IMG/VR virus record: IMGVR_UViG_3300045988_076491
Reading direction: 5' to 3' (one strand)
Origin: a virus
Length of the DNA: 57,695 nucleotides
Position numbers and translations under genes: made by a program. The notes under the pieces were generated by a model. That model was not told the origin of the DNA. It ran no database searches and was given only the letters and a program-made list of their open reading frames with translations. Of the stretch, positions 24,549 through 48,698 are shown piece after piece (within the stretch, counting starts at the first letter, position 1; the number at the start of each line of letters is the position of its first letter).

Positions 24549-24549
24549 C

Positions 24550-24813: not shown

Positions 24814-24814
24814 C

Positions 24815-27742: not shown

Positions 27743-27771
27743 ATCAAGTTCGTAAATTTAAGGAGAGAACA

Positions 27772-27963
27772 ATGGGAATATATGCACCATGCAAAGATTG
27801 CAAAGAAAGAGCTGTAGGATGTCATGCAACTTGTGAAATCTACAAGAAATACAGAGAACAGCTTGAACAATTTAAGAAAGACAATAGGCCTGCACCGTCA
27901 ACGTTAGATGCAGCAAGAACAACTCATAATAGCTTGTCTAGACTTAGACATAGAAAAGATTAA
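27772..27963 (+). CDS. Small Cys-rich hypothetical protein
   Basis: 63 aa; CKDC...C..C cluster; AAGGAG RBS. Confidence 0.6.
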   Translation: MGIYAPCKDCKERAVGCHATCEIYKKYREQLEQFKKDNRPAPSTLDAARTTHNSLSRLRHRKD

Positions 27964-27979
27964 GTAAAGGAGGCTGAAT

Positions 27980-28216
27980 ATGGCACAGATTAACATAACT
28001 ACAACGGCTGAAGAACAGGACAGAGTATTAGAGGCACTTAGAAAACTGCATGGACAAACAGTTGCAGTATCCGCTATTGCTTCAATGGCTGGAATGAATC
28101 CGAGCAGAGTACGCTATGCAATTACTGACCTTGAAGAAGGCGGTAAGATAAAGCGTATACCAGTTAAGGCTTTCAATGTGCACTACATTCGCTATAAGTA
28201 TGAAGTGCTCATTTAA
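27980..28216 (+). CDS. Winged-helix DNA-binding protein (tentative)
   Basis: 78 aa. SAIASMAGMNPSRVRYAITDLEEGGKI resembles a wHTH. Confidence 0.5.
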   Translation: MAQINITTTAEEQDRVLEALRKLHGQTVAVSAIASMAGMNPSRVRYAITDLEEGGKIKRIPVKAFNVHYIRYKYEVLI

Positions 28217-28243
28217 GCAATATACATTACAAGGAGGTTTAGC

Positions 28244-28501
28244 ATGGACCAAGAACAAATCAAATTGTATGGCACTGCATCATGTCCGCAGTGTCAGGGT
28301 GCTAAAGCATTGCTTGAGCGTAGAAATGTACCATTTGAGTACATAGACGTACGCAAAGACGCAGTAGGTATGAACTACTTGCTAGAGCGAGGCTTGAGCA
28401 CTATTCCTGTTATTATTTGGAAAGACCAGTGTATCACTGGGTTTAGTCCAAAGCAGATTGACAAACTTATTATGGAGGTAATGAACAATGGCAATGCTTG
28501 A
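28244..28501 (+). CDS. nrdH: NrdH / glutaredoxin-like redoxin
   Basis: CPQC active site; TIPVI motif; upstream of nrdD. Confidence 0.75.
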   Translation: MDQEQIKLYGTASCPQCQGAKALLERRNVPFEYIDVRKDAVGMNYLLERGLSTIPVIIWKDQCITGFSPKQIDKLIMEVMNNGNA

Positions 28502-30257
28502 TACAAACAAAATTGTAGATGACTACATGCTTCAAAGAGACTGGAGAGTTAAAGAGAACAGTAATGCTCCATTTAGCTTCGGTCAAATGAACAAGTATAT
28601 TAACAGTGCCGTGTCAAAGCAGTACTGGGCTGAAAGAGTTTACGATGCATCGGCATCTGCAGCGCACAATGATGGCTTTATTCATATTCATGATATGAGT
28701 GGGCTTACCATTTACTGCTGTGGTTATTCTCTGCAGAAGGTACTTGACTATGGCGTTAAGGGGGTACCTAATATCCCTACATCAAAACCTGCTAAGCACT
28801 TCGACGCTGCACTTAATCAGCTTGCTAACATGCTTACTATTTTCCAGAATGAAATTATGGGTGCAGTTGCATTCAGTTCATTTGACACACTGCTTGCTCC
28901 ATTCATCAAGGTAGATAAGCTTACATTTGAGCAGGTTAAGCAGAACATTCAGAATTATATCTACTCAGTTAACTCTAACAGCAGAGCAGGCGCTGAGCCA
29001 GCTTTTAGCAATCTTACGTTTGACCTGTTTCCGCCTAAGGACCTTAAGGACCAGCCAGCACGTATTGCAAATGAGCTGCAGGACTTCACTTATGGTGACT
29101 GCCAGAAAGAGATGGATATGCTCAACAAGGCATTCTTCGAAGTAATGCTTGAAGGAGACGCTAATGGTAAACCATTCGCATACCCTATTCCAACGTACTC
29201 AATTATGGACGGCTTTGACTGGGACAATCCTAACAATGATTTGTTATGGGAGATGGCAGGTAAATATGGCTATCCATACTTTAGTAACTTCATGGGTAGT
29301 GATATGGACCCAAGTGATGTACGCTCTATGTGTTGCAGGTTAAGACTTGACCTTTCAGAGCTTCAACGCCGCAACGGTGGCCTGTTTGGTTCAGGTGACA
29401 GTACTGGTTCTATTGGTGTAGTTACACTTAACTTACCACGTATAGGCTACCTTACAAAAGGTCAGTCAGAAGATTCATTGATGTCTATGATTAAAGACTT
29501 TATGAACATTGCTAAGGATAGCCTTGAAGAAAAGCGTAACTGGCTTGATATGCACTTAATAGGCACTGGCATGATTCCTGCATTTGACACATATGTTGGC
29601 ACACTTAATAACCACTTCAGTACAATTGGCTATGTAGGTATGAATGAGATGTGCGAGAACTTCATGGGCAAAGGTATCATTACAGAAGAGGGCAAGGCCC
29701 TTGCAGAGCGCGTACTTGACTTTATGCGCGATGTGCTACTTTCATTCCAGAAATCAACTGGTCATCTGTACAACCTTGAAGCTACACCTGCAGAGTCAAC
29801 ATGTTACAGACTGGCTAAGCTTGATAAGAAGCTTTATCCTGATATTATCACGCAGGGTAGTGGTGACAGTGTATACTACACCAATTCATGCCATATACCT
29901 GTAAAGGAAGTTGAAGGTATTGCTGCACTGCTTAACCACCAGGATTCATTGCAGGTTAAAATGACAGGTGGTACTGTAGTACATTTGTACCTTGCAAAAG
30001 GAATCAGTGACAAGCAGGCAAAGAACATTGTAAGGCATACATGTGAGAACTACTCATTGCCATACATTTCACTCTCACCAGTAATTTGTTACTGTCCTGA
30101 CTGTGGTGTTATTGATGAGCCTGCAGATGTATGTCCACATTGTGGAGGCATCACTCATTATATGCAGCGTATAACTGGTTACATCAGAGATGTTGATAAC
30201 TACAATCCTGGCAAGCTGCAAGAGTTCCGCGATAGAAAGCAGATTCATGTTAAATAA
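28488..30257 (+). CDS. nrdD: Anaerobic ribonucleoside-triphosphate reductase
   Basis: CCRLRLD motif; C-terminal Zn site CPDCG...CPHCG; glycyl-radical RITGY. Confidence 0.9.
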   Translation: MAMLDTNKIVDDYMLQRDWRVKENSNAPFSFGQMNKYINSAVSKQYWAERVYDASASAAHNDGFIHIHDMSGLTIYCCGYSLQKVLDYGVKGVPNIPTSKPAKHFDAALNQLANMLTIFQNEIMGAVAFSSFDTLLAPFIKVDKLTFEQVKQNIQNYIYSVNSNSRAGAEPAFSNLTFDLFPPKDLKDQPARIANELQDFTYGDCQKEMDMLNKAFFEVMLEGDANGKPFAYPIPTYSIMDGFDWDNPNNDLLWEMAGKYGYPYFSNFMGSDMDPSDVRSMCCRLRLDLSELQRRNGGLFGSGDSTGSIGVVTLNLPRIGYLTKGQSEDSLMSMIKDFMNIAKDSLEEKRNWLDMHLIGTGMIPAFDTYVGTLNNHFSTIGYVGMNEMCENFMGKGIITEEGKALAERVLDFMRDVLLSFQKSTGHLYNLEATPAESTCYRLAKLDKKLYPDIITQGSGDSVYYTNSCHIPVKEVEGIAALLNHQDSLQVKMTGGTVVHLYLAKGISDKQAKNIVRHTCENYSLPYISLSPVICYCPDCGVIDEPADVCPHCGGITHYMQRITGYIRDVDNYNPGKLQEFRDRKQIHVK

Positions 30258-30711
30258 GCTTGTTAGTTATAAAGGCATAGTTCATGAACGGGCAGAAGAT
30301 GCTCCGTTTATGGGCGCCTTGATAATATCTGTTTCATGTAGCAATAATTGCCGGGATTGCTTTAATCAGCACTTGAAAGATACTAAGACATACATACGCT
30401 ATGCTGATGAAATAATTGAAGAGGTTAAGCAAAATCATTTCAATGATGGTATTATACTTGGTGGCTTAGAATGGTCTGAACAACCTGATGATACAATATC
30501 ACTTATAAGCTGTGCCGCAGCTGCTGGCTTAAAAGTAATGCTATACACAGGCCTGACTGAAGAAGAGCTCTTTCGTAGAATACCAGTTGATTACCTGCAT
30601 AACTGTTATGTTAAATTTGGTAAGTATGACAATAAACACTTATCTGATAATTACACTTCACATGGCGTAAAGCTTGCTAGCACAAACCAGTATATCAAGT
30701 ATATATCATAA
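30247..30711 (+). CDS. nrdG: Anaerobic RNR activating protein (radical SAM)
   Basis: CSNNCRDC is a Cx3Cx2C cluster. Start set to the ATG at 30247, overlapping the nrdD end. Confidence 0.75.
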   Translation: MLNKLVSYKGIVHERAEDAPFMGALIISVSCSNNCRDCFNQHLKDTKTYIRYADEIIEEVKQNHFNDGIILGGLEWSEQPDDTISLISCAAAAGLKVMLYTGLTEEELFRRIPVDYLHNCYVKFGKYDNKHLSDNYTSHGVKLASTNQYIKYIS

Positions 30712-30793: not shown

Positions 30794-30812
30794 TATAATA
30801 GAAAGGAGAGTG

Positions 30813-32861
30813 ATGACTTTGGCAGTAATACAAGCAAAGAAACGACCTGTTATTCAAAAAGGTAACGGATACGTTTATAATCCACAAACTTTTGCCAAAG
30901 AGCATAAGGTTAGCAACTTCCATGTAGTTGAAGACCCACAAGAACTTCTTAGTCTTGTAAAACCATTTGAGTTCAGAGGTAGAAAATTCATAACGTTCGA
31001 TACTGAGACACATCCTGAATTTCCAAGCAGTCATGTAGTTCCAAGTACAGTAGTAAGACGTTGGGTTGGTACTGGTAAGAAAGCAGTTCCTCAGGACTTT
31101 CCATTTTGTATATCAATTTGTGATGGTAAAGATTCCTACACAATATTTGATACTGTACGAAATGGCTTTGAAAAGTTTAAACAACTGGCACCTTTATTTG
31201 AGGACCCGACAATTGAAAAGATTGCACATAACACTAAGTTTGATATGCATATGTTTGCTAATGCAGGTTTAAAGATTGTAGGTAGACTTCATGATACAGT
31301 AGTACTTGCAAAGCTTGCAAATGAAAACAGAACGTCTTTTCAGTTAAGAGATTTGGCTGCAAGAAAAAAGGGAGGCATTGTCAAGTTTGAATACATGGTT
31401 GATGCCTACAAGCAAATGAATAAGGTTAGTGATTATCGACAGATTCCAAGAGAATTACTTAGTGAATATGCAAATGCCGACGTATGGAACTGTTACCTGA
31501 CCTTCATTACTGAGTATGAGAAAATTGAGCAAGATGAACTTGTAGATTTGTATGACAATGAATGTGAGCTTATGATTGCTTTGTATGCTATGGAACGTTA
31601 TGGCATGAGAACAGACATTGAATACGAGAAGCCTCTTAAAGAAGAGTTACAACAGCTTACTGATGATGCAGAACGTGCGATTTATGAAGAGGCTGGTTAC
31701 ATGTTCAATATCAACTCTGGTAAGCAGCTATATGAAGTTCTTATGAAGCTTAATGTTGACCCAACACTTATTAAAAAGACTGACAAGGGTAATCCTAAAC
31801 TTGACAAGGATGCATTGGCAAATCTTGCTGAAGTTCATGATGTTTCAATTGTCAAGAAAATCTTGGAATACAGAAAGTACGAGAAGCTTCTATCTACATA
31901 TGCTGATGGTATATATGACCAGCGTGATGCAGAGAACAGAGTACACGGTTCAATAAATCAGACTGAGGCTACAACAGGCCGTATGTCAATTACGAAACCT
32001 GCACTTCAGACTCTTCCAAAGAAGGACAAGCGTATTCGTAGAATCTTCTTGCCGGATGATAACTATGAACTATGGTTCATGGACCTTGACCAGGTTGAGT
32101 ATCGTCTATTTGCACACTATGCGAAGATTCCTGGATTGATTGAATCCATCAAAAATGGCTATGATGTCCACGCAGCAACTGCAGCACTTCTATTTAATAA
32201 AGATGTGGACGAGCTTATAGAAAAGGTGCATAAAGGTGATGAAGAGGCAAGCTCACTTCGTTCAAGGGCAAAGACTATTAACTTTGCACTTATCTATGGT
32301 GTTGGTCAGGACCATCTTGCAGAGATGCTTAAGTGTACGCCTACTGAAGCTTCTGAGATTAAGGCAAGATACTTCTCTACAATGCCAGAGGCTAGAATAT
32401 TCATCAATACAGTTTACCAGGTAATTAAGCTTAGAGGCTTTGTAAAGAACTTCTATGGAAGACGTCGCCGCCTCGACTCTGATGACTGTTACAAAGCACC
32501 AAATGCATTGATTCAAGGTTGCGCTGCAGACTATATCAAGTACAAAGTGGTTGACATCTACAAGTATCTGATGTATCATCATCTTAAGACGCACTTAATC
32601 AACATTGTACATGATGAGCTTGTAATTGACTTCAATAAGGATGAGCTTGAGCATGTGCCAGTGCTTAGATGGATGCTGTCTGAATTCTCTGCGTTTAGAT
32701 GTCCTATCACAGCAGGTGTAGAACGCGGTGAACCTTCTTGGGGCCAGAAAGTGGAACCTGAAGGAGTAGAGTTCAAGGAGCCTGAAGACAAATCATACAA
32801 GAACTATAATGTATATGACGGTTCAGTATTTGACATTTATAGGGAGGCTGTATATGAGTAG
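30813..32861 (+). CDS. polA: Family A DNA polymerase with 3'-5' exonuclease domain
   Basis: ExoI FDTET; motif A DLDQVEYRL; motif B RSRAKTINFALIYG; motif C VHDE. Confidence 0.9.
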   Translation: MTLAVIQAKKRPVIQKGNGYVYNPQTFAKEHKVSNFHVVEDPQELLSLVKPFEFRGRKFITFDTETHPEFPSSHVVPSTVVRRWVGTGKKAVPQDFPFCISICDGKDSYTIFDTVRNGFEKFKQLAPLFEDPTIEKIAHNTKFDMHMFANAGLKIVGRLHDTVVLAKLANENRTSFQLRDLAARKKGGIVKFEYMVDAYKQMNKVSDYRQIPRELLSEYANADVWNCYLTFITEYEKIEQDELVDLYDNECELMIALYAMERYGMRTDIEYEKPLKEELQQLTDDAERAIYEEAGYMFNINSGKQLYEVLMKLNVDPTLIKKTDKGNPKLDKDALANLAEVHDVSIVKKILEYRKYEKLLSTYADGIYDQRDAENRVHGSINQTEATTGRMSITKPALQTLPKKDKRIRRIFLPDDNYELWFMDLDQVEYRLFAHYAKIPGLIESIKNGYDVHAATAALLFNKDVDELIEKVHKGDEEASSLRSRAKTINFALIYGVGQDHLAEMLKCTPTEASEIKARYFSTMPEARIFINTVYQVIKLRGFVKNFYGRRRRLDSDDCYKAPNALIQGCAADYIKYKVVDIYKYLMYHHLKTHLINIVHDELVIDFNKDELEHVPVLRWMLSEFSAFRCPITAGVERGEPSWGQKVEPEGVEFKEPEDKSYKNYNVYDGSVFDIYREAVYE

Positions 32862-39145: not shown

Positions 39146-39586
39146 CTATTTGTCTTTATTGTGCGGTCCAATTCTCTTATCAGGCTTAGTGGTAAATGTT
39201 ACCGACCCACGCTTTGAGCCCTTGTCAGAACGTTGCTTTCTATTAGAGCCTTTTGGTATGCTTCTGCTTCTTCGTATCTCATCAGCGCAGGTTGTACAAT
39301 AATTTGTATAGTTGAAGTCTCGGTCAGCAATAGCGACCTTTCCACACTTCTTGCAGTGCCACTGCGGGGCTGGCTTCAAGTGTGCAAGCTTTCGTCTCAT
39401 AGCTACAGGCACAAACATTCCGTGCTTGATGTTAAATTCACACATCTCATTGTGCCACTCAAGCTCTTCTTGTGTGCTGCGTCCCTGCCTTACTTTCTCA
39501 AGCACTCTGTAACATCTGGCACACAGTGAGTCCCTGTTAATGTGCGTAGTTTCTTCTGTAATTCCGCAAAACTTACATACTTTCAT
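39146..39586 (-). CDS. Zn-ribbon protein with a basic C-terminal tail
   Basis: CKFCG...CARCY and CKKCG...CTTCA pairs; GGAGGAG RBS. Confidence 0.65.
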   Translation of the reverse strand: MKVCKFCGITEETTHINRDSLCARCYRVLEKVRQGRSTQEELEWHNEMCEFNIKHGMFVPVAMRRKLAHLKPAPQWHCKKCGKVAIADRDFNYTNYCTTCADEIRRSRSIPKGSNRKQRSDKGSKRGSVTFTTKPDKRIGPHNKDK

Positions 39587-40250
39587 TTGTTAGCTCCTCC
39601 AATCTATCTTGTGTACGACTGCGCCACTTTGGCACTTGTGGAGCCCAGTAGCCTCGCTTCTTTAACACTTCATATTCGTCAAGCAGCATCAATAGACTAA
39701 CGCACTCTGCCATGTCTAGCACAGCAATCCTTGCACGTAGTGCTTTATACTCCTTGTAACGCTTCTGACATGCAGGGCACCGCTTAGTTGTATCTTGTCC
39801 TACTGGCAGAAGGTGTGCTTCACCGCAGTATCTACACTTAACTGTAAGCATATCTTGCGCTGCAACTTCTTGAAGACGCTTCTTGCTTAGTGCTTCTTTA
39901 GAAAGTTCCTCAAACTGTACGTACCTCTGTGCCGCGGCGTACAGTTCATCTATCCAATCAGGTACCAGTCCGCCATTGTTCTTAATATCTACGAAGTACT
40001 GTAATCTGCCTAGTTGGCGCTTCACAGCGTCTAATGTGCTGTGCCTGCTAAGTCTAGATTTGGCCAACGTTATGCCCTGCACCCTACGAGAGCAATCACA
40101 GCAAAGTTTATTACCGTGGACTGACCTGTTACCTGCTGGTACGTTTGTGGCGCCACAGCAAGGACATCTGGCCATTTCATACGTTAAGTGCCCCTTAGTA
40201 TCTACAAGAATATTTCTGCCTTTGTTATCTTTTCCTGTACATTTGTACAT
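39573..40250 (-). CDS. Zn-ribbon protein
   Basis: CPCCG...CCDC and CRYCG...CPAC pairs. AGGAGGTGATT leader identical to the terS leader. Confidence 0.65.
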   Translation of the reverse strand: MYKCTGKDNKGRNILVDTKGHLTYEMARCPCCGATNVPAGNRSVHGNKLCCDCSRRVQGITLAKSRLSRHSTLDAVKRQLGRLQYFVDIKNNGGLVPDWIDELYAAAQRYVQFEELSKEALSKKRLQEVAAQDMLTVKCRYCGEAHLLPVGQDTTKRCPACQKRYKEYKALRARIAVLDMAECVSLLMLLDEYEVLKKRGYWAPQVPKWRSRTQDRLEELTNESM

Positions 40251-40269
40251 ACAATCACCTCCTAATTAT

Positions 40270-40298
40270 ATTATACGCAATTTAGTTCAGTGATATAA
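40270..40298 (-). promoter_or_regulatory. Promoter of the shared late-type family (minus strand)
   Basis: Minus strand reads TTATAT, 17-nt spacer, TATAATATAATTAGGAGGTGATT. 25 nt are identical to 45561-45585. Confidence 0.6.
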
Positions 40299-40340
40299 CA
40301 TCAGTTGAATTAAATATATTACATTACTTGACGTTAGTAT

Positions 40341-40405
40341 AAAATACGTTAAGATACTTGTTACGAGTTGTTTTCCTTAACTTTCTAGACATCTTAACGT
40401 ATTTT
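40341..40405. repeat. Perfect 15-bp inverted repeat AAAATACGTTAAGAT / ATCTTAACGTATTTT enclosing TTAAC-type units (locus B, left arm)
   Basis: Arms at 40341-40355 and 40391-40405. TTAAC at 40377 and 40394, with a degenerate unit between them. Confidence 0.85.
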
Positions 40406-40535
40406 TGAGGCCACTCAATAAGTATATATGATATTTAGTATAAAAATATTTTTGAGTACTAATTTGATATTATATCAGTGGTAGTATAAAAAATTGTTGA
40501 GGCGTCGCATAGATTATGATGATATAAAAAAATAC

Positions 40536-40582
40536 GTTAAAATGTTAAGATTGTTAAGATTGTTAAAAAGTTAAAAAGTTGA
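40536..40582 (+). repeat. Array of six GTTAA(G/A)A-type units at an 8-9 bp period (locus B, right arm)
   Basis: GTTAA/GTTGA begin at 40536, 40544, 40553, 40562, 40570 and 40578. Confidence 0.85.
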
Positions 40583-40788
40583 ATAAACTATGAAGGTCAA
40601 GATGTCTGTACTGCTGTGCCGCTGCGTATATATCTACTAGCTTATTAGAATAGAACTAATAATTAAAGTCAAATCAAAAACCAATATTTGGGCTTTTTTC
40701 AATATATAAAATATATCCTATATATATACTTATTTTTTTCAAAATTTGATTGGAAAGAAGGAACATGAAGTCTTCTGAATCTTTGTAG

Positions 40789-40817
40789 GTTTAACACGTC
40801 CGTGATATCCATATAAT
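40789..40817 (+). promoter_or_regulatory. Possible promoter reading into the GC-rich island
   Basis: TATAAT at 40812-40817 with TTTAAC/TTAACA 15-16 nt upstream. The -35 is weak. Confidence 0.3.
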
Positions 40818-40859
40818 TATACAGCACCGTGATGAGAATGGTCTGTAGAAAATCCGCTA

Positions 40860-41430
40860 GGCTTGACGTCGCTCGGGGTCGCTGCGGCGACGAGTTCAGT
40901 GGAAGTCTTATAGTTCAACACTAGTCTTTTTAAGCCAAACAAGCCTCTGCACGGATATAGAATACTCTGACATACAGCGTCGCGGCGTCCCTGGGCTGAT
41001 ACAGACTGAAGGATTGTAGATACACAGGCAGTGAGTCACAGTGCCACCCGGCCGCGGCTCTACTCCTTAAAAGAAGTGCAGCCACAGTCAGACGAGGCAA
41101 GGGTTTTAGCAGCTGCGGAGCAGCGGCGCATGGTCGCAGCGGCGCTATTACGACTAGACCAGCACGGATGCCAGGCTGAGCCTATTTTGTGCAGCGCCGC
41201 CGCGACATTGACTGGCCATGACTGTGGAGGGTTTTAGCCGCCGCATCCCGGCCTCCGTACGGCCGGAGCTGACGTCAGTTCTACAAGCTAGTAGATTACA
41301 GCTGGTCCAATCCAACCCCGCACCACGGTGGCCCAGGCCCACTTGCTTACGCTGAACTTGACTTCCACAAGCTAGTAGATGTCCCGGCCAGGCGGCGCTT
41401 GAGCCAGGCTGCACCAAAGGGCATATCAAA
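40860..41430 (+). ncRNA. GC-rich non-coding island A' (candidate structured RNA or protein-binding array)
   Basis: No RBS-preceded ORF. 38/60 G+C in 41101-41160 by hand count. Contains two GGGTTTTAGC, two GCTAGTAGAT and the palindrome CTGACGTCAG (41269-41278). Confidence 0.35.
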
Positions 41431-41460
41431 GCCCAGCTGGCTGACAAGACCAGCTGGGCT
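41430..41460 (-). terminator. Terminator of the 41490 gene (minus strand)
   Basis: Stem agcccagctgg, 9-nt loop, stem ccagctgggct. The minus-strand tail is UUUGAUAU. Confidence 0.6.
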
Positions 41461-41489
41461 TCAATTGAAAGTGAGTATTCAGTTGTATG

Positions 41490-42248
41490 TTATCCAAGCA
41501 TTTCTTTAATCTGTGCAAGCAGCGCTTTGCTGTCTTTTGCATTCATGTGCTCAAGGTCGACGTCTGCGAGCTTCTCAGTTAATGCGTCCTTGGTCTCATC
41601 AACCTTCACAACCTGTGTACGACCTGTAGAAACTCTGATTGCCTTGAGCTGCTCTTCAGCTACGAGCAATGCCTGCCAACGTGGGTCCTCTTCACTGAAG
41701 TCAGCTTTTGACTTCATGATAGACTTCTTGGACTGAACGTTGCGGATTTCCTTCTTAAGTCTGTCCTGGTCCTCTTTGAGCTCTTCAAGCTGCTCAGCAG
41801 TAAAATCTACTGAACCAGACATGCGGCGTGCACCACCTGCGGACTTAACCTTGCCAGTAGCCTTTCTGATAAGGTTCTCAGCAATCGCACCAGCCATCAT
41901 ACTCTTGTAGTTATCCATTGTCATGGCCTTGCTCTTTGCACGAGAACGCTTAGACTGCTGACTCTTCAACATACCATCAACAGTTGCTTCTTCAAGCTCC
42001 TTGATGAACTCAACATCTACAGTGTCATAGTCAATCAACTTTGCAAGCAGTGCATCCATTGCGTTGTGGTCATGCTTTGAAGCTTCGAAGTCTTCACGGT
42101 ACTCATCAAGGTTGTCATTCAACTTCTTGATGCACTCAGCAACAAGCTCATTTGCAACAGTTGTAAGCTGTGCAGTACCTGCAAGATTTCTTGCGTTTGT
42201 AGTTGTTTCATTGTTTTCAGTTGTGTTGAACATTTCGTTAATAGACAT
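41490..42248 (-). CDS. 252-aa charged helical protein; paralogue family with a duplicated QSK(K/R) basic motif
   Basis: ATG at 42248 (AAGGAG RBS). Motifs MLKSQQSKRSRAKSK and IRNVQSKKSIMKSK. Alignable with the 44374 protein. Confidence 0.75.
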   Translation of the reverse strand: MSINEMFNTTENNETTTNARNLAGTAQLTTVANELVAECIKKLNDNLDEYREDFEASKHDHNAMDALLAKLIDYDTVDVEFIKELEEATVDGMLKSQQSKRSRAKSKAMTMDNYKSMMAGAIAENLIRKATGKVKSAGGARRMSGSVDFTAEQLEELKEDQDRLKKEIRNVQSKKSIMKSKADFSEEDPRWQALLVAEEQLKAIRVSTGRTQVVKVDETKDALTEKLADVDLEHMNAKDSKALLAQIKEMLG

Positions 42249-42320
42249 AGTAGTCTCCTTTCTGTCCGCGTCATCCACGCGGCTGCCACACTTTGCAGTG
42301 GCCTGCGTATTTGGTTAAGC

Positions 42321-42520
42321 TTTATTTCCTTAACTCTATACATATTATATCATGAATTTTTGCGGCTGTACATATGTTTTGTAAATTCAATGTGGTCACT
42401 GTACAGTCTTTATTCAATTTTGTATAACTGCTAGAATCAAGTACTTATTTCTTAACTCTATAGATATTATACTATGGAACTTTGCAGTTGTACATATGTT
42501 CTTCAAATTCAATACAGTGG
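42321..42520 (-). repeat. Tandem ~80-bp duplication, each copy carrying a minus-strand promoter (units 42321-42400 and 42444-42520)
   Basis: Both units contain cttaactctata.atattata and gtacatatgtt. The minus-strand -10 elements are TGATATAAT (42344-42352) and TAGTATAAT (42466-42474). Confidence 0.7.
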
Positions 42521-42540
42521 CTGCACCAACTATTTGTAAC

Positions 42541-42830
42541 TGAGTGAGGCGGCGAGGTGGCGCAGCCTTGTCAGGTCAAGCTAAGGTTTTAGCCGTCGTG
42601 GCATAGCCAAGTCCGACTAGGGTTTTAGCGACTGCTGTGTTGCACTGTTGAGTTGAGACTGCAGCAGTCAGGTCCAGCGCTGCCAGGCTGAGGCTGGGTT
42701 TTAGCCGCAGTGGTAAAGCGCAGTCTTGCTGCGGCTGCACGGATTGCTCACGCTGCATCGGGCTGCAGGCTAGTAGATAGCCGACGGCCGCCCGGCTGAG
42801 GCTGAACTGTGGTTGGTGCAGCAGTTAAAA
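42541..42830 (+). other. GC-rich non-coding island B
   Basis: Three (G/A)GGTTTTAGC copies (42584, 42620, 42696), GCTAGTAGAT (42769) and GCTGAGGCTGAACTGT (42795). Lies between divergent promoters. Confidence 0.5.
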
Positions 42831-42865
42831 ATATTTCTGAAACTGACACCAAACTGCAAGATATT

Positions 42866-42874
42866 TGATATAAT
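42866..42874 (+). promoter_or_regulatory. Extended -10 promoter TGATATAAT of cassette 1
   Basis: Part of a ~55-bp block (aaaaatatttctgaaactga...tgatataata) repeated at 43475-43525. Confidence 0.6.
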
Positions 42875-42920
42875 ATAATTGTAAGAAATAATAAAGACAG
42901 TATGAAAGTGAGGTACAACT

Positions 42921-43292
42921 ATGAACAACCTAAAAACAATCGAAAGTGCTATTCAAAGGCTCAAGGCCATGTATGACTGTAACTATGAATGCATGGATGC
43001 AGATGACAGTGGCGACTTACTGACAACTATTTATGAGCTTGAACAAATGAAGAGAGACTTACTACATGATGACTACATTAAGAAAGTTACAGACTTCAGA
43101 GACCACGTGGTATCTACAATGCCAGAGTCAACTGAAAAAGAAGATGAGCACAGCCTAAAGGCTTGGGAAGACTTCTATGGACTGAAGTGGACAATTAGTT
43201 TTGCAGGCAAAGAAGTAACTCTTGACAATGAGGCTGGTACATGGCAACCAATTGTTGACATGCTTACTGATTATCTTGACAATTATCTTTAA
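42921..43292 (+). CDS. 123-aa acidic hypothetical protein (cassette 1)
   Basis: GAAAGTGAGG RBS; D/E-rich; has its own promoter and terminator. Confidence 0.75.
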   Translation: MNNLKTIESAIQRLKAMYDCNYECMDADDSGDLLTTIYELEQMKRDLLHDDYIKKVTDFRDHVVSTMPESTEKEDEHSLKAWEDFYGLKWTISFAGKEVTLDNEAGTWQPIVDMLTDYLDNYL

Positions 43293-43300
43293 GAGTAAGT

Positions 43301-43331
43301 ACACAGCAGTTATCTGCTGTGTATTTCTTTG
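43301..43331 (+). terminator. Terminator of cassette 1
   Basis: Stem acacagcag, loop ttat, stem ctgctgtgt, followed by atttctttg. Confidence 0.75.
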
Positions 43332-43470
43332 CCTTGAAGTGCAGCTACTGCATTGTCAAGCCATGACTGGGTTTTAGCCGCCGTGGCCTGAGGCCACTAA
43401 GCTGAGGCTGTCCACATGCTGGTAGATAGCCTTGCACTGACTAGCTGAGGCTGAACTGTATTTGATGCAG
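43332..43470 (+). other. GC-rich non-coding island C
   Basis: GGGTTTTAGCCGCCGTGGC (43369), GCTGGTAGAT (43418) and GCTGAGGCTGAACTGT (43444). Confidence 0.5.
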
Positions 43471-43513
43471 TCATAAAAATATTTCTGAAACTGATAACAA
43501 ACTGCAATAGATA

Positions 43514-43522
43514 TGATATAAT
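43514..43522 (+). promoter_or_regulatory. Extended -10 promoter TGATATAAT of cassette 2
   Basis: Homologous to the promoter block of cassette 1. Confidence 0.6.
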
Positions 43523-43561
43523 ATATATATAGAATAAAGAAAAGAAAGTGAGGATATTAAA

Positions 43562-43882
43562 ATGAAAGATGAATTGTGTACTATTGCTGGAGAAGACCTG
43601 GTTGGCCTCATCGAGAAGATAGCCTATGAAGACTATGCTAAGGCCTATAGAAAGCTGCATAGGGCTGGACTTAATCGTAGACCTACATATGAAGACTTCA
43701 TTCGTAGCTGTCCGGCTTTTGTAGCATTTCCATCAATACCTGATGATGCATGGCATCAGGCCTATGAATTCATAGCCGACTTGTTTGATGACAATGAAAA
43801 GAATGGAACGCCTTGCGATGAAGAGGCGAAGTTCAACCAGAATGTAGCAGAGCTACTGATGATGTTCAACAACAGAAAATAA
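43562..43882 (+). CDS. 106-aa acidic hypothetical protein (cassette 2)
   Basis: GAAAGTGAGG RBS; has its own promoter and terminator. Confidence 0.75.
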   Translation: MKDELCTIAGEDLVGLIEKIAYEDYAKAYRKLHRAGLNRRPTYEDFIRSCPAFVAFPSIPDDAWHQAYEFIADLFDDNEKNGTPCDEEAKFNQNVAELLMMFNNRK

Positions 43883-43890
43883 TAGCAGGT

Positions 43891-43921
43891 ACACGGCAAG
43901 CAATTGCCGTGTATTTCTTTG
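43891..43921 (+). terminator. Terminator of cassette 2
   Basis: Stem acacggcaa, loop gcaa, stem ttgccgtgt, followed by atttctttg. Same frame as the cassette 1 terminator but with compensatory stem changes. Confidence 0.75.
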
Positions 43922-44170
43922 CCTGCAGATGCAGCCTTGCATTATCAAGCCAGGACTGGGTTTTAGCGGCCGTGGCACGCCATTATCAAGCCAGAGCTGG
44001 GTTTTAGCGGCCGGGTGCAGCTTGCCAAGCTGAGGCTGGGTTTTAGCGGCCGTGGCACGCCTACTGCATGGCCGCGGCTGAGCTGCGTACGCAGCAGAAC
44101 GTACGTTCCACTGGCTAGTAGATAGCCTAGCGCAGTCCGGCTGTGGCTGAGCTGCAGCTGTGGCGATGTG
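43922..44170 (+). other. GC-rich non-coding island D
   Basis: Three GGGTTTTAGCGGCCG copies (43958, 43999, 44038). Palindromes gctgcgtacgcagc and gaacgtacgttc. GCTAGTAGAT at 44114. Confidence 0.5.
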
Positions 44171-44200
44171 CAAAAGAAAAGACCGGTCTTTCGACCGGTC
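44171..44200 (-). terminator. Minus-strand terminator
   Basis: Stem gaccggtc, loop tttc, stem gaccggtc. The minus strand follows with UUUUCUUUUG. Confidence 0.65.
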
Positions 44201-44373: not shown

Positions 44374-44889
44374 TTACATCAGACTTTTCAGAAGTTCTAC
44401 AACCTTTTCTTGACTCAGATTTCCTGAACTTTCAATTGTATCAATGATGGTCTGTACATCTGTTTTTCTAACATATTCATTATCAACAGGTTTTGTAGAT
44501 TCTCTTCTTTCAATCAGCATCTTTTCAATCTCACAGGCTTTTCTGTACTCATCATTATCACCCTCAACATCTGTCAACCATTTGGTAAGTGTCTTTTTTG
44601 ATTGAATACTTCTAATGGCCTTTATGGTCTCATCATAATCTAACTGGTCAACATCTTCCTGTGTGTACATTGTAACTGGCTTTTCTTTAGGGTCAAGTAA
44701 CTGTCTAACCTCTTTTAAGACCTGCTCATATTTTACTACCTCAGTCATCTCTTCCTCATAGGTCTTCTTGCCCTTCTGCTTTTTAAGGCGGCACTTCAGA
44801 GACTGCACCCTTTTAAGCTCCTTTGCTACAAGGTCCACATTGTTCTCGAACTTTTCTGCAACCTTTTCGATTTCTTTCATGTTTGTCAT
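44374..44889 (-). CDS. 171-aa charged helical protein; paralogue of the 41490 product
   Basis: ATG at 44889 (GAAAGTGAGG RBS). Motifs LKRVQSLKCRLKKQKG and IRSIQSKKTLTKW. Confidence 0.75.
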   Translation of the reverse strand: MTNMKEIEKVAEKFENNVDLVAKELKRVQSLKCRLKKQKGKKTYEEEMTEVVKYEQVLKEVRQLLDPKEKPVTMYTQEDVDQLDYDETIKAIRSIQSKKTLTKWLTDVEGDNDEYRKACEIEKMLIERRESTKPVDNEYVRKTDVQTIIDTIESSGNLSQEKVVELLKSLM

Positions 44890-44950
44890 TTTGATTTCCT
44901 CACTTTCAATATTATTTTTGTAAGTCATTCATTACTCACTTACAATATAA

Positions 44951-44979
44951 ATTATATCGTGGATTTTGGAATTTGTAAA
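44951..44979 (-). promoter_or_regulatory. Sigma-70-type promoter (minus strand)
   Basis: Minus strand reads TTTACA (44974-44979), 17-nt spacer, TATAAT (44951-44956). Confidence 0.65.
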
Positions 44980-45453
44980 TAGTTTCTTTCAAAAAAGTTG
45001 CACAAAGAACTATACAATTTCCTATGCAATTTGACAGAACATTTGTTCTGTGCATACCGCCCAAAAATTGCGCCGGATTCTGTGCAGTTTTGCCGGCCCC
45101 TTAGCGCGGTGGCGCTTGCACAAGTTAACTTTGCCAAAAATAAACAAATAAAAGAAGATGCAAAGTCTAGCATAACTGCAGCATCACAGCCTAAATGAGA
45201 CTCAGCAGCCCGACGCCACGTAGCCGCCCTTCGCTGCTTAGACAAATAGACAATCCAAAGATTACAGGAAGCTATAGTAGTTACAGAAGCGACCTTTTCC
45301 GGCAAAAAATCTAGAGGAATTGTAGATAAACTGGAAAGAAAATAGTTATTTTGTTTATTATATGTGTTAATATTGTAAAAATTAACTTGCAGCATGTACT
45401 TGGTACTTGTAACGAGCTCGTGAGCATCCCAGAAGAGATTTTATAAGGTGTAT

Positions 45454-45469
45454 ATTACGAACGTGTTGC
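45454..45469 (-). promoter_or_regulatory. Inverted copy of the 16-mer GCAACACGTTCGTAAT
   Basis: The plus strand reads ATTACGAACGTGTTGC, the exact reverse complement of 10367-10382. Confidence 0.6.
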
Positions 45470-45539
45470 ACGTAAGGCCTTTTTAAGGAAAAATCTACTA
45501 TTTCTCTCGATTTTGCTGACTATTGGATAACACTTGTAG

Positions 45540-45568
45540 CTATACACGGCAGCCAAACAACGTATAAT
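45540..45568 (+). promoter_or_regulatory. Late-type promoter upstream of terS
   Basis: CTATAC, 17-nt spacer, TATAAT, then ATAATTAGGAGGTGATT. The same cassette occurs at 40270 (minus strand) and 50633. Confidence 0.6.
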
Positions 45569-45586
45569 ATAATTAGGAGGTGATTT

Positions 45587-46411
45587 ATGATGGGAGACCA
45601 GGAGCTTATGCGTCACGGTGACATTGCAGAACCAGTACTAATGGTGCATTGCCCAAGATGTGGTCAATACAAACCAGCTCATCATATTGACAAACACCTC
45701 TGCGTTGACTGTGCGAATGCTGAGAATACGCGTGTGACTTACTACAGGCAACACCAGGATGATTGGATAGCGAATGCCAAGGAGAATGGTATTGACCTTT
45801 GGTCGCAGCAGCCCGGCGAGACACAGTGGGAGTTCACAGTCTGGACAGCTTATAGAGACTCGTATCCAGGAAAGAAGCCTACATATGGTGATGTAGCTCG
45901 TCAGCTTAATACTACCTACAACTCTGTCAAGAAGATTGCACAGCGTTGGTCATTCCAGTTGCGTATGCAGGCCTGGATGAAGTATTGTGATGACATCACG
46001 CTGCAGCAGCGCAGGCAAGAAATCTTGGATATGAATAAGGACCATGTAGATATGGCGGCTAGGTTGCGCTCGAAGCTCAGCACCGCTATTGACATGATTG
46101 ACCCGATGTCGCTTAAGCCTGGTGAGATTGCTTCCCTTGCTAAGTTAGCAGCAGACATGGAACGCAAAGCTCGTACTGACACTATTGCTCAGGAAGAGAT
46201 GCGTCGCGATGCTATGGTTGATACAGAGAACCCAGACATCAAGAAGAGTCCTACAAAGCAGGCTGACTTGAGTGAGGTAGTCGGAATACTCCTTAAGGCA
46301 GGGGCACTTGGTGACATCACACAGATTGGTGTTCGCCAGACCAAGACAACCGAAGTCGCACTTGTAGATGCTAATGGCAACTCATCTAGTGTGACAATGG
46401 ATGATGAGTAA
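45587..46411 (+). CDS. terS: Terminase small subunit candidate (N-terminal Zn ribbon plus HTH)
   Basis: CPRCGQYKP...CVDC; HTH-like TYGDVARQLNTTYNSVKKIAQRW. First gene of the packaging cluster. Confidence 0.6.
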   Translation: MMGDQELMRHGDIAEPVLMVHCPRCGQYKPAHHIDKHLCVDCANAENTRVTYYRQHQDDWIANAKENGIDLWSQQPGETQWEFTVWTAYRDSYPGKKPTYGDVARQLNTTYNSVKKIAQRWSFQLRMQAWMKYCDDITLQQRRQEILDMNKDHVDMAARLRSKLSTAIDMIDPMSLKPGEIASLAKLAADMERKARTDTIAQEEMRRDAMVDTENPDIKKSPTKQADLSEVVGILLKAGALGDITQIGVRQTKTTEVALVDANGNSSSVTMDDE

Positions 46412-47330: not shown

Positions 47331-48698
47331 ATGAGTATAGACTTGAATGGAATTGACCTGCAACAGCTGCAGGGAATTTTAACGCCACGTCTGACTAAGT
47401 ATATCCCTTATGACCCTACACCTAAACAGCGAGCTTTCTTACTTATGAATGATACGAAAGAGATTTTGTATGGTGGAGCAGCCGGTGGAGGTAAGTCTGT
47501 AGCACAGCTTATGGCAGCGTTACAGTATGTAGATATACCAGGCTACTCCGCTATACTTTTTCGTAAGACATATGCTGATTTATCATTGCCTGGTGCATTG
47601 ATAGATATGTCTAAACAATGGCTGATGCCTTTTGTTGATAGTAAGGAAGTTAAGTGGTCTGAAAAGGAAAAGCAGTATGTTTTTCCTTCAGGTGCCACAC
47701 TGAACTTTGGTTATCTTGAGTCAGCTAACGATTGTTATCGTTACCAAGGTGCTGAATTTCAGTATATAGGAATGGATGAGGTTACGCATATAGACCCTAC
47801 TAACTACAGGTATCTATTCTCACGTTTACGTAAGCCAAAGACATTGCAAGTACCTTTAAGATTTAGAGCTACAGCAAACCCTGGTGGACAATTTGGTGAA
47901 TACTATTACCAAAGATTCTTTGTTGAGGGTAAAGATGCTGGGCGTATTTTTATAGGTGCAGGTATTGATGATAACCCATATCTTGATGCTGAAGCTTATA
48001 AAGAATCACTTGCAGAGTTGGACCCTATAGAACGTGAGCGTTTATTGAATGGTAACTGGGAAATTAAAGCATCTGGTGATATGCTTAATAGGCACTGGTT
48101 TACTATAGTACCTGCATCTGAAGTTCCTGCTGCTGCTAGAAGGGTACGATACTGGGATATGGCGTCTACAGACCCTAAGAAGCGCAAAGGTAAGAATAAG
48201 CGAGAGCCAGACTGGACAGTTGGATTTAAGCTTGCGCACTACCAGGGTATGTATTGGATTGAGGACATTATACGAGAACAAAAAATGCCTGGCGATTTGG
48301 AGAAGCTTTTAGGCGAAACAGCACGAGCAGATGGATATGACGTAGCAATACGTATGGAGGAAGAGCCAGGTTCTTCTGGTAAGATTACTACTGACCACTA
48401 TGCAAGGCATGTACTGCAAGGGTATGACTTTATTGGCGTATCCTCTACAGGTTCTAAGGTTGAAAGAGCTAGAACAGCATCAGCAGCAGCACAAAGGGGT
48501 AATGTGCACATTGTACAAGGATGCAGAAACATTCTACCTTTTCTTGATGAGGCTGACTTATTTCCTTATGGTATTCATGATGATACAATAGATGGCTTCT
48601 CTGGAGCTTTCAATTACTTTAGAGGGCCTACACTTAATAGGGTTCCATCTGGTATAAAGAAAACAGGTGGTTCTTACTGGACAAAATTTAGGAGGTGA
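47331..48698 (+). CDS. terL: Terminase large subunit
   Basis: Walker A GGAAGGGKS; Walker B YIGMDEV; C-terminal nuclease-like region with conserved D residues. Confidence 0.9.
   Translation: MSIDLNGIDLQQLQGILTPRLTKYIPYDPTPKQRAFLLMNDTKEILYGGAAGGGKSVAQLMAALQYVDIPGYSAILFRKTYADLSLPGALIDMSKQWLMPFVDSKEVKWSEKEKQYVFPSGATLNFGYLESANDCYRYQGAEFQYIGMDEVTHIDPTNYRYLFSRLRKPKTLQVPLRFRATANPGGQFGEYYYQRFFVEGKDAGRIFIGAGIDDNPYLDAEAYKESLAELDPIERERLLNGNWEIKASGDMLNRHWFTIVPASEVPAAARRVRYWDMASTDPKKRKGKNKREPDWTVGFKLAHYQGMYWIEDIIREQKMPGDLEKLLGETARADGYDVAIRMEEEPGSSGKITTDHYARHVLQGYDFIGVSSTGSKVERARTASAAAQRGNVHIVQGCRNILPFLDEADLFPYGIHDDTIDGFSGAFNYFRGPTLNRVPSGIKKTGGSYWTKFRR

What the first reader, a model, noticed from the sequence alone, without database searches (positions are those of the whole stretch)
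40860..41470. About 600 nt of GC-rich, ORF-free sequence with a possible promoter and a terminator: candidate large structured ncRNA
This is the longest non-coding stretch in the genome; 40251-41489 contains no credible gene. The ORF-track entries 41031..41237(+) and 41154..41447(-) lack Shine-Dalgarno sites, overlap each other, and have Ala/Arg/Gly-rich sequences of the kind GC-rich DNA produces by chance. A hand count gives 38/60 G+C for 41101-41160, against 23/60 for a typical coding line (13201-13260). The segment is dense in local helices and palindromes, including cgtcgc/gcgacg at 40867-40891, CTGACGTCAG at 41269-41278 and ccggcc..ggccgg around 41249-41268. It follows a possible promoter (TATAAT at 40812) and ends at the hairpin 41430-41460. 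GC-rich intergenic islands in AT-rich genomes are a known enrichment signal for structured RNAs. Large ornate RNAs of similar size (ROOL about 580 nt, GOLLD about 800 nt) are typically phage-associated. I cannot match this sequence to either by eye.
Basis: partly seen in the sequence, partly recalled or inferred. Interest (0 to 1): 0.8.

Follow-up and report, generated by a model that had tools for sequence, protein, structure and literature searches.

The report
Repeated GC-rich spacer cassette, phage early region
The GC-rich, gene-free 600 bases are real and conserved, but they are one of four copies of a modular repeat cassette that separates swappable early genes in a common group of uncultured gut/rumen phages, not a single large folded RNA like ROOL or GOLLD.

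Summary
Bases 40860-41470 are 57% G+C in a 41% genome. No reading frame survives in relatives. A promoter-like site and a strong hairpin flank the region.

There is no Rfam match, even at E<=10. The region is not unique. The 9-mer GGTTTTAGC occurs nine times in the window, all on the + strand and all within 41102-44047, in four GC-rich islands (A, the finding; B; C; D). Each island ends in a second module, CTAGTAGAT.

The same cassettes occur in many related uncultured phage contigs. There they form arrays of up to nine ~41-nt units. They usually lie between one small early gene's terminator and the next gene's promoter, and always read in the local direction of transcription. The genes between cassettes are exchanged among ~88%-identical phages, while the cassettes are kept.

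What is conserved is primary sequence, not pairing:
- Unit-level covariation tests are negative.
- 25 diverse copies of the second module give no consensus fold.
- In region A only about six hairpins are robust, and they fit both strands equally.

Best reading, at moderate confidence: cis-acting, multi-copy factor-binding boundary elements that also serve as recombination arms. A trans-acting decoy RNA remains possible, because region A alone has its own promoter.

The parts
40790..40817 (+). Promoter-like site P_A: TTTAAC, 16-nt spacer, TATAAT. It reads into the GC-rich region.
   Evidence: Sequence. The scan flags an overlapping site. Identical in L122 and L159; TTTCAC..TATAGT in L124. Function not shown.
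40824..41428 (+). Cassette A, the finding: a GC-rich non-coding body made of a ~280-nt lineage-specific 5' part, two M units and two S modules. The transcribed strand is unresolved.
40867..40889 (.). Local hairpin CGTCGC / GCGACG. One of the ~six helices predicted on both strands.
40946..41005 (.). Helix 40946-40954 with 40996-41005. Three consecutive fully compensated pairs distinguish the two sub-clades.
   Evidence: helix 4 (215:289 CG:8/AU:4; 216:288 UA:6/CG:4/UG:3). Coordinates.
41082..41125 (+). M unit 1 of cassette A (core GGGTTTTAGC at 41101-41110).
41133..41206 (.). Inverted repeat GTCGCAGCGGCGCT / AGCGCCGCCGCGAC (14 nt, 93% complementary). The RNAalifold helix within it (41133-41143 with 41196-41206) is nearly invariant.
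   Evidence: I14; helix 9.
41215..41253 (+). M unit 2 of cassette A (core GGGTTTTAGC at 41229-41238).
41279..41296 (+). First S core, TTCTACAAGCTAGTAGAT.
41341..41415 (+). Complete S module: CTTGCTTACGC .. TTCCACAAGCTAGTAGAT .. GCCAGGCTGCAC.
41429..41461 (.). 12-bp hairpin, 30 nt downstream of the stop codon of the minus-strand 262-aa gene. Candidate bidirectional terminator, with a weak U-tract.
   Evidence: I21. Compensatory pairs AU:9/GC:4 and CG:9/AU:4 (helix 18). Not flagged by the terminator scan.
42565..42810 (+). Cassette B: M units with the 9-mer GGTTTTAGC at 42585, 42621 and 42697 (the first is preceded by A rather than G); S at 42763-42778; GGCTGAGGCTGAACTG at 42794-42809. The early promoter and the gene starting at 42921 follow.
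43335..43460 (+). Cassette C: one M unit (43369-43378) and an S core (GCTGGTAGAT, 43418-43427). It lies between terminator 43297-43326 and the promoter of the gene starting at 43562.
43925..44170 (+). Cassette D: three M units (43958, 43999, 44038) and S (44107-44123). It lies between hairpin 43889-43913 and bidirectional terminator 44181-44200, with no downstream promoter.
   Evidence: The same layout appears in the distant relative L150.
40632..40641 (-). Isolated S-like core (GCTAGTAGAT on the minus strand) inside the AT-rich block.
   Evidence: I17, I18. Conserved in L122, L159 and L124.

Best explanation
Region 40860-41470 is the largest and most derived copy of a modular, non-coding, GC-rich boundary cassette. 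These cassettes punctuate the early/accessory-gene region of an abundant clade of uncultured ~57-60 kb phages of anaerobes.

A cassette is n tandem M units followed by one S module. An M unit is ~41 nt (34-48), with consensus ..CAAGCYGWGGCTG-GGTTTTAGC-SGCCG... The S module reads ..TTGCTYACGC..TCCACANGCTAGTAGRT..GGCTGAGGCTGAACTG.

Shown:
- The modules are conserved as primary sequence.
- They are always co-oriented with local transcription.
- They usually sit between a terminator and the next early promoter.
- They are retained while the genes between them are exchanged.
- They show no unit-level base-pair covariation.

Inferred:
- They act in cis as multi-copy binding platforms for a sequence-specific factor, either on DNA or on read-through RNA.
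- This insulates or tunes adjacent early transcription units.
- Their conserved 250-600 nt also supply homology arms for cassette exchange.

Region A would be such a cassette in inverted position. It converges on the 262-aa gene and has acquired its own promoter-like site. It carries a few conserved hairpins but no global fold.
For: - Motif distribution. GGTTTTAGC occurs 9 times exactly, all on the + strand and all within 41102-44047. GCTAGTAGAT closes each cluster. GGCTGWGGCTG has 10 hits against 1.9 expected.
- Family. At least 15 distinct related viral contigs (several were fetched as more than one locus) carry three or more GGTTTTAGC copies on one strand, with up to nine consecutive ~41-nt units. 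A set of 142 distinct units gives the consensus, with G10 at 98% and C11 at 94%.
- Architecture. Of 49 arrays, 37 are followed by S, 22 by an extended -10 promoter 131-293 nt (commonly ~145-175) after the last M unit, and 18 are preceded by a hairpin plus T-run 35-86 nt (mostly 41-48) upstream.
- Orientation. The order M..S..P..gene always follows local transcription, on either genome strand in different phages. Some relatives carry a variant core, CTTTTATGCG.
- Cassette exchange. Homology between the window and L122 runs 40712-42929 at 88% and stops 8 nt into the gene starting at 42921. It resumes only in cassette pieces.
- Sequence, not pairing, is conserved. There is no -5:+9 covariation and no diagonal excess in a pair-frequency matrix. 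Chimeric halves fold as well as native ones (-11.28 against -11.19 kcal/mol, p=0.61). The S-module alignment of 25 copies gives 0 consensus pairs.
- Selection on composition. The variable middles are 62% G+C in a 41% genome.
- Conservation. Most of region A is 88-92% identical to L122 (one 200-nt tile at 77%), close to the adjacent gene at 89-96%.
Against: - No binding factor is identified.
- Unit spacing is irregular (34-48 nt; octamer spacing 17-25 and 40-41), which is unusual for phased DNA operators.
- Cassettes A and D have no downstream promoter, and the D layout is conserved in a distant relative. A purely promoter-upstream role therefore fails for them.
- Region A has its own conserved promoter-like site, a closing hairpin and no ORF. 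That is the architecture of an RNA gene.
- A few helices in A do covary above the controls: 15 pairs with double changes against 9.3+/-1.7 in shuffles and 2-7 in slid controls.
- Selection for high G+C in unconstrained positions points to a thermodynamic role in a single strand.
- No transcript data were available.
Confidence: 0.42

Rival explanations
1. Trans-acting decoy or sponge RNA. Region A, and read-through transcripts of B-D, are expressed early. They display many copies of the single-stranded motifs GGGUUUUAGC and CUAGUAGAU between generic GC-rich hairpins, and so titrate a host RNA-binding protein, a ribonuclease or a defence effector.
For: - Region A has a promoter-like site, no ORF and a closing hairpin, all conserved in relatives.
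- Motifs are multi-copy, with flexible spacing and expanding arrays, including near-identical neighbouring units in L040.
- The cassettes are always sense to local transcription.
- Spacers are GC-rich, with generic rather than specific hairpin potential.
- The location is an early region full of small, acidic, rapidly exchanged genes.
Against: - Many arrays lie directly downstream of intrinsic terminators (18 of 49 by a crude scan), so their transcription should be low.
- Region A has only two M and two S motifs.
- The minus strand folds as well or better.
- There is no evidence that the motif sits in loops.
- No transcript evidence is available.
Confidence: 0.25
2. Repeats spread by slippage and recombination, with no molecular function of their own (REP- or MITE-like). 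They are tolerated between transcription units and matter only as substrates for mosaicism.
For: - Copy number varies between close relatives (cassette D: 3 units in the window and L062, 2 in L054), and L124 carries more arrays.
- Adjacent units are near-identical in L040.
- Assemblies of relatives break inside these regions.
- Gene exchange is bounded by cassettes.
Against: - The core 10-mer is invariant and the S module is conserved across phages whose 262-aa protein is only ~50-60% identical.
- Module order and orientation are fixed.
- G+C is 62% at variable positions, against the genome's AT bias.
- No transposase was found among the proteins scanned.
Confidence: 0.15
3. One reading: one large (~600 nt), intricately folded ncRNA comparable to ROOL, GOLLD or HEARO.
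For: - It is a GC-rich island in an AT-rich phage genome, non-coding and conserved.
- MFE z-score is -2.9.
- Some compensatory pairs occur.
Against: - There is no Rfam hit.
- The composition is modular and shared with arrays elsewhere.
- Only ~33 strand-independent pairs are found in ~650 nt, and the reverse strand scores better.
- A ~100-nt segment is simply absent in the L124 sub-clade.
- The module alignments give no consensus fold.
Confidence: 0.06
4. Mimic of an immune RNA. [quoted passage not shown]
For: - Copy 41279-41296 reads UUCUAC-AAGCUA-GUAGAU.
- Tandem repeat periods of 34-48 nt overlap the type III antitoxin range (own knowledge).
- The elements sit in the early region of a phage.
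Against: - In most S copies the third stem position is a C.A mismatch (UCCAC/GUAGA), the loop is 6 nt, and many copies end in GUAGGU.
- Only ~12-19 nt of M is conserved, too little for a repeat:anti-repeat duplex.
- Type III antitoxins have an A-rich stretch and a pseudoknot (PMC12283969). Nearly identical units and an adjacent toxin gene are also typical (own knowledge). None of these is seen here.
Confidence: 0.05
5. Replication origin or primer transcript. An AT-rich, iteron-bearing block (40251-40830) is followed by a promoter reading into GC-rich DNA, which could form a persistent R-loop primer as in ColE1 RNA II or the T4 and T7 origins.
For: - The AT-rich block contains repeated ACGTTAA/GTTAAAAAG motifs, and iterated equivalents occur in L125.
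- The phage encodes a Pol I-type polymerase and an RNase H/FEN-type nuclease.
Against: - GC skew across A is near zero.
- The same modules occur in three other islands with no AT-rich neighbour.
- No origin data are available.
Confidence: 0.05

Closest known systems
PeSL (promoter-early stem-loop) regulatory cassettes of T4-type phages (PMC2839356, PMC4122927; from titles and abstracts)
   Same: Repeated intergenic promoter/terminator cassettes flank small, hypervariable early genes and mark the breakpoints of gene exchange between close relatives.
   Different: As I recall, a PeSL is only a promoter plus a stem-loop of tens of nt. Here a 100-600 nt GC-rich array of conserved M and S modules lies between terminator and promoter. 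The sequences are unrelated, and the host is different.
REP/BIME extragenic palindrome clusters of enterobacteria (own knowledge)
   Same: Both are ~35-40-nt GC-rich units in intergenic clusters, often at 3' ends of transcription units, with hairpin potential. They have proposed roles in mRNA stabilisation, gyrase binding and recombination.
   Different: REP units alternate in orientation and are true palindromes tied to RAYT transposases. Here all units are direct, the conserved core is asymmetric, and no transposase was found among the proteins scanned.
Protein-sequestering RNAs (CsrB/RsmZ type) (own knowledge)
   Same: Many copies of a short conserved motif are separated by hairpins, with variable spacing and copy number.
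   Different: There is no evidence that the motif sits in loops. Most arrays lie behind terminators. The partner protein is unknown.
ROOL, GOLLD and HEARO large phage-associated RNAs (Rfam)
   Same: Size range, phage association, and a GC-rich, ORF-free island.
   Different: No covariance-model match, and no extensive strand-specific covarying fold.
ToxI/CptI/TenpI antitoxin repeat arrays and phage pseudo-ToxI (PMC3401426, PMC12283969)
   Same: Tandem direct repeats of 34-48 nt, transcribable from an upstream promoter and ending at a terminator (region A). Array expansion is seen in phages.
   Different: The units are divergent, U-rich rather than A-rich, and lack the pseudoknot signature. No toxin gene is nearby.
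RNase III processing sites between T7 early genes (own knowledge)
   Same: Structured intergenic elements in a phage early operon, sense to transcription.
   Different: The T7 sites are single conserved hairpins with a defined structure. Here there are arrays of sequence motifs without conserved pairing.

Membership tests
ROOL / GOLLD / HEARO / raiA (Rfam large RNAs) | Match to the family covariance model at or near the gathering score | tested here: not met
   The whole window at gathering score finds only two tRNAs. Interval 40200-43000 at E<=10 gives only chance-level hits of 15-19 bits, none to these families.
Large structured ncRNA (generic) | Multi-helix fold supported by compensatory changes on one strand | tested here: inconclusive
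   With 13 homologues there are 15 of 85 pairs with double changes, against 9.3 in shuffles. The mirrored alignment folds better on the reverse strand (-82.6 against -68.7 kcal/mol). Only 33 pairs are shared between strands, and G.U usage is symmetric at 155 against 163.
Large structured ncRNA (generic) | Non-coding, with promoter and terminator | tested here: met
   The ORFs are broken in relatives. The promoter-like site and hairpin are conserved. Transcription itself was not testable.
Cas12a-repeat mimic (RNA anti-CRISPR / solitary repeat unit) | Conserved 5-bp stem UCUAC/GUAGA with a 4-5-nt loop and a 3' GUAGAU | tested here: not met
   Most of the family S copies among the 115 pattern hits read UCCAC or UCCGC (a C.A mismatch). 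The loop is 6 nt, and many copies end in GUAGGU.
Cas12a-repeat or type II repeat mimic | Identity to the CRISPR repeat of the host | not testable with these tools
   The host genome is unknown. One related contig is binned with an Oscillospiraceae MAG.
Type III toxin-antitoxin antitoxin array (ToxI-like) or phage mimic | Tandem direct repeats of ~35-45 nt | tested here: met
   Spacing is 34-48 nt, with the mode at 41.
Type III toxin-antitoxin antitoxin array (ToxI-like) or phage mimic | Near-identical units with an A-rich stretch and pseudoknot-forming stems | tested here: not met
   In this window the units are 64-76% identical to the reference copy. The core is U-rich (GGGUUUUAGC), and no conserved pairing is found. 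Family features are taken from PMC12283969.
PeSL-type mobile regulatory cassettes | Repeated promoter/terminator modules flank variable genes, with exchange breakpoints inside the modules | tested here: met
   Homology to L122 ends at 42929, 8 nt into the gene.
REP/BIME | Imperfect palindromic units in alternating orientation, with an associated RAYT transposase | tested here: not met
   All units in an array are direct. No Y1 transposase appears among the proteins scanned.
Iteron or operator arrays on DNA | Direct repeats with constant helical phasing next to the controlled promoter or origin | tested here: inconclusive
   The period is 34-48 nt, and octamer spacing is 17-25 and 40-41 nt. S lies 80-102 nt upstream of the -10 element in most cassettes, but A and D have no promoter.
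CsrB-like sponge RNA | Motif presented in hairpin loops or single-stranded linkers, with own promoter and terminator | tested here: inconclusive
   Only A has its own promoter and terminator. Loop presentation is not supported.

The most novel reading that the evidence does not exclude
The M/S arrays, with region A as their dedicated transcription unit, are a new class of phage-encoded multi-site decoy nucleic acid. Expressed at the start of infection, they would titrate a host RNA- or DNA-binding regulator or defence protein through the invariant GGGUUUUAGC and CUAGUAGAU cores.
Probability: 0.2. Interest if true: 0.8.

Novelty: new variant of a known kind. Interest (0 to 1): 0.5.

Why it matters
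The phage clade is very common in public anaerobic, gut and rumen metagenomes. The adjacent 262-aa protein has 1553 database relatives at E<=1e-20.

Its early, probably host-takeover region is organised by a repeat cassette that is absent from Rfam. It matched nothing in 50,697 deposited phage genomes, and the two literature searches made here found no description of it.

If the cassettes are boundary elements and recombination arms, they explain how these phages shuffle accessory genes, and they give a handle for finding such genes in metagenomes. If they are decoys, they would be a new anti-host strategy.

For the scan itself, the lesson is that a GC-rich, ORF-free island is not enough to call an ornate RNA. 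Checking for repeats within the same genome changed the reading.

Tried and rejected
- Rfam gave nothing at gathering score or at E<=10.
- BLAST of regions A and B, and of a 22-kb stretch, against 50,697 phage records found no match.
- A hidden gene is rejected: all four ORFs checked are broken in relatives, and none has a Pfam match. The 31-aa ORF at 40829 shows about 10 non-synonymous to 4 synonymous changes against L123 (by eye).
- A hairpin presenting GGGUUUU in its loop is rejected: positions -5:+9 pair in only 37% of units, with no covariation.
- A fixed-register hairpin between motifs is rejected: there is no diagonal excess, and chimeric halves fold equally well.
- A consensus fold of the S module is rejected: 0 pairs in 25 copies.
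- A genome-wide strand bias (Chi-like, packaging or replication direction) is rejected, because orientation follows local transcription and differs between phages.
- A Cas12a-repeat mimic is rejected on the stem mismatch.
- A type III antitoxin mimic is unlikely.
- Three readings were set aside on sequence inspection alone:
  - A sigma-54 or tandem-promoter reading of the M units has spacings that do not fit.
  - TAG-recoded coding repeats are rejected because 41 nt is not a multiple of 3 and no suppressor tRNA is present.
  - Backup terminators are rejected because only 3-bp mini-hairpins precede UUUU.
- The genome-collection scan for host copies found only phage-like small contigs, L148/L150 and L151.
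- The literature search for the motif strings found nothing relevant.
- The neighbouring conserved proteins were uninformative: no PDB, Pfam or PHROG match for the 262-aa protein, no Pfam or PHROG match for the 184-aa protein, and an AF2 model of the 184-aa protein with pLDDT 48.

Full report
**Setting**

The window is a phage genome of about 58 kb and 41% G+C. Identified genes are:
- tape measure protein, 16-2610;
- SNF2 helicase, 12959-14668;
- sigma factor, 15298-15864;
- ligase, 15857-17212;
- primase-MCM helicase, 19417-22386;
- anaerobic ribonucleotide reductase, 28488-30257;
- family A DNA polymerase, 30810-32861;
- small and large terminase, 45587-46411 and 47331-48698.

No deposited phage is similar at the DNA level. 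The best cultured match to the large terminase is 44% identical.

The finding lies in a region of mixed orientation (39-45.5 kb). This region holds small genes with strong extended -10 promoters, between the replication module and the terminase.

**The observation**

The interval is 57.3% G+C. The most GC-rich 300-nt windows of the genome all fall here or in two nearby islands.

None of the four ORFs checked in the interval survives in relatives that are 77-91% identical. They acquire stop codons and indels of 1, 7, 10 and 16 nt. None has a credible Pfam match.

A promoter-like site precedes the region: TTTAAC, 16 nt, then TATAAT at 40790-40817. It is conserved in L122, L159 and, in weaker form, L124. 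The 12-bp hairpin at 41429-41461 is kept by compensatory changes (helix 18). It has a poor U-tract in both directions and is also the natural terminator of the converging 262-aa gene.

The 9-mer GGTTTTAGC occurs nine times exactly. All copies are on the + strand and all lie within 41102-44047, in four clusters. Each cluster is followed by GCTAGTAGAT.

Region A (the finding) therefore belongs with B (42565-42810), C (43335-43460) and D (43925-44170). B and C continue into a shared promoter block and the next small gene. C and D begin just after the terminator of the previous gene. D ends at a bidirectional terminator.

**The family**

A pattern scan of viral contigs returned more than 119 stretches. 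At least 15 distinct related contigs, mostly from ~57-60 kb phage genomes, carry three or more copies on one strand, with up to nine consecutive ~41-nt units.

A set of 142 distinct units gives the consensus G.CAAGCyG.GGCTG-GGTTTTAGC-sGCcG.gGc, with a modal period of 41 nt and a range of 34-48.

The second module (S) has its own extended consensus: TTGCTYACGC, a variable stretch, TCCACANGCTAGTAGRT, about 10 nt, then CCGGCTGAGGCTGAACTG.

Of 49 arrays surveyed:
- 37 are followed by S;
- 22 are followed by an extended -10 promoter 131-293 nt (commonly ~145-175) after the last M unit;
- 18 are preceded by a hairpin plus T-run 35-86 nt (mostly 41-48) upstream.

Orientation is local, not genome-wide. 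In relatives where the 262-aa gene lies in a co-directional series, the arrays lie on the gene's strand, some with the variant core CTTTTATGCG. In the window's own sub-clade, B-D diverge from that gene and A converges on it.

A 1.5-kb contig labelled Hymenobacter is really a fragment of such a phage. It shows the D layout: four M units, S, the same bidirectional terminator, and converging genes.

**Gene exchange**

Homology between the window and L122 runs without a break from 40712 to 42929 at 88% identity. It stops 8 nt into the gene that starts at 42921, and resumes only in cassette pieces. The small genes are unrelated. The minus-strand genes at 39146-40250 are replaced in L122 as well. 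Most of region A is 88-92% identical to L122, close to the neighbouring conserved gene at 89-96%.

**Is it a folded RNA?**

Rfam says no.

At the level of the repeated units, pairing is not what is conserved:
- Positions flanking the core do not covary.
- A full matrix of left-anchored against right-anchored positions shows no diagonal excess.
- Inter-motif segments fold only slightly better than shuffles (mean z -0.77).
- Chimeras made of halves from different units fold as well as native units.
- The hairpin potential comes from the family consensus itself (GCYGWGGC is quasi-palindromic through G.U pairs) and from G+C, which is 62% even at variable positions.
- Twenty-five diverse S modules give an RNAalifold consensus of zero pairs.

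For region A as a whole I enlarged the homologue set to 13. I searched for relatives of the 262-aa protein (1553 at E<=1e-20) and fetched their contigs. The results:
- RNAalifold predicts 85 pairs over ~650 nt, with a covariation term of -3.5 kcal/mol.
- Counted on that structure, 15 pairs carry double changes, against 9.3+/-1.7 in shuffles and 2-7 in slid controls.
- The signal sits mainly in helix 40946-40949/41002-41005 and in the terminal hairpin.
- The exact mirror of the alignment folds better on the other strand (-82.6 against -68.7 kcal/mol).
- Only 33 pairs are common to both strands. They form about six hairpins: 40867-40889, 40979-40989, 41133-41206, 41162-41171, 41240-41252 and 41429-41461.
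- G.U usage is symmetric, at 155 against 163 cells.
- Single-sequence folding also favours neither strand.
- A ~100-nt segment that includes the first S core is simply missing in the L124 sub-clade.

This is a set of conserved local inverted repeats inside a modular sequence. It is not an ornate global fold, and the functional strand cannot be called.

**Interpretation**

Shown:
- There is a conserved, oriented, multi-copy family of sequence modules.
- Module order is fixed, and so is position relative to terminators and promoters.
- The modules are retained while the genes between them are exchanged.
- G+C is high even at unconstrained positions.

Inferred: the cassettes are cis-acting boundary elements. 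Their invariant cores would be multi-copy binding sites for a factor, on DNA or on read-through RNA. Their length gives homology for cassette exchange, as proposed for the much simpler PeSL cassettes of T4-type phages (PMC2839356, PMC4122927).

I hold this at about 0.4. Cassettes A and D lack a downstream promoter, A has the architecture of an RNA gene, and unit spacing is irregular.

The main rival, at about 0.25, is a trans-acting decoy RNA. A selfish-repeat reading (0.15) must explain the invariant cores across phages whose marker protein is only ~50-60% identical.

**Verdict**

The element is a new variant of a known kind, namely phage intergenic regulatory or repeat cassettes. It is undescribed in Rfam, in deposited phage genomes and in the two literature searches made here, and it is widespread. 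Interest is 0.5. It would rise sharply if transcript data showed that the arrays are abundant early RNAs.

Noticed in passing
window 40251-40830: AT-rich block of 27% G+C. It holds a perfect 15-nt inverted repeat, AAAATACGTTAAGAT (40341-40355 / 40391-40405), with a third copy at 40528-40543, and tandem GTTAAGATT/GTTAAAAAG repeats at 40545-40590. L125 has iterated ACGTCAAAA at the same place. The sub-block 40700-40790 (ATATATAAAATATATCCTATATATATAC..TTGATTGGAAAGAAGGAAC) is conserved even in the distant L125. Candidate operator set or replication origin.
   Followed up: partly
window 42326-42404 and 42448-42526: A 79-nt direct repeat (77% identical). Each copy carries a minus-strand promoter (TGTACA, 17 nt, TATAAT) for the 262-aa gene, giving tandem duplicated promoters.
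   Followed up: partly
window 42921-43292, 43562-43882, 39146-40250: Small early genes, two of them acidic and two rich in CxxC motifs, are replaced by unrelated ORFs in ~88%-identical relatives. The one breakpoint mapped lies just inside the start codon (homology to L122 ends at 42929). This is a probable accessory or anti-host cassette region.
   Followed up: partly
window 41490-42278 (-) and 44374-44928 (-): These are the two conserved proteins of the region (262 and 184 aa). Both are helical and highly charged, share a short motif (IRNVQSKKS / IRSIQSKKT), and have no Pfam or PHROG match (the 262-aa protein also has no PDB match). The 262-aa protein has 1553 database relatives. They are possible partners of the cassettes.
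   Followed up: partly
window 23943-30711: Nucleotide-metabolism cluster: dUTPase, a thymidylate-synthase-like protein, dNMP kinase, dCMP deaminase, and NrdD with its activase. The cluster raises the possibility of a modified base in the phage DNA (my speculation).
   Followed up: no
window 44930-45586: A second ORF-poor stretch of ~650 nt lies between divergent promoters upstream of the small terminase gene. The 147-aa minus-strand ORF listed there looks spurious. It could hold the packaging site.
   Followed up: no
L120, L121, L128, L133, L172, L173 (relatives): Several independent assemblies of related phages end inside or just beyond the equivalent of region A. These are most likely assembly breaks at the repeated modules rather than true genome ends.
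   Followed up: no
window 12354-12429 and 12743-12818: The phage encodes two tRNAs, tRNA-Met (CAT) and tRNA-Arg (GCG). They are the only Rfam hits in the window.
   Followed up: no
L148, L150 (NZ_JAGEMO020000175/176, Hymenobacter terricola assembly): These small contigs in a Bacteroidota isolate assembly are fragments of a phage of this family, with low-GC coding sequence and the same terminator and array. This is probable contamination or mis-binning.
   Followed up: partly
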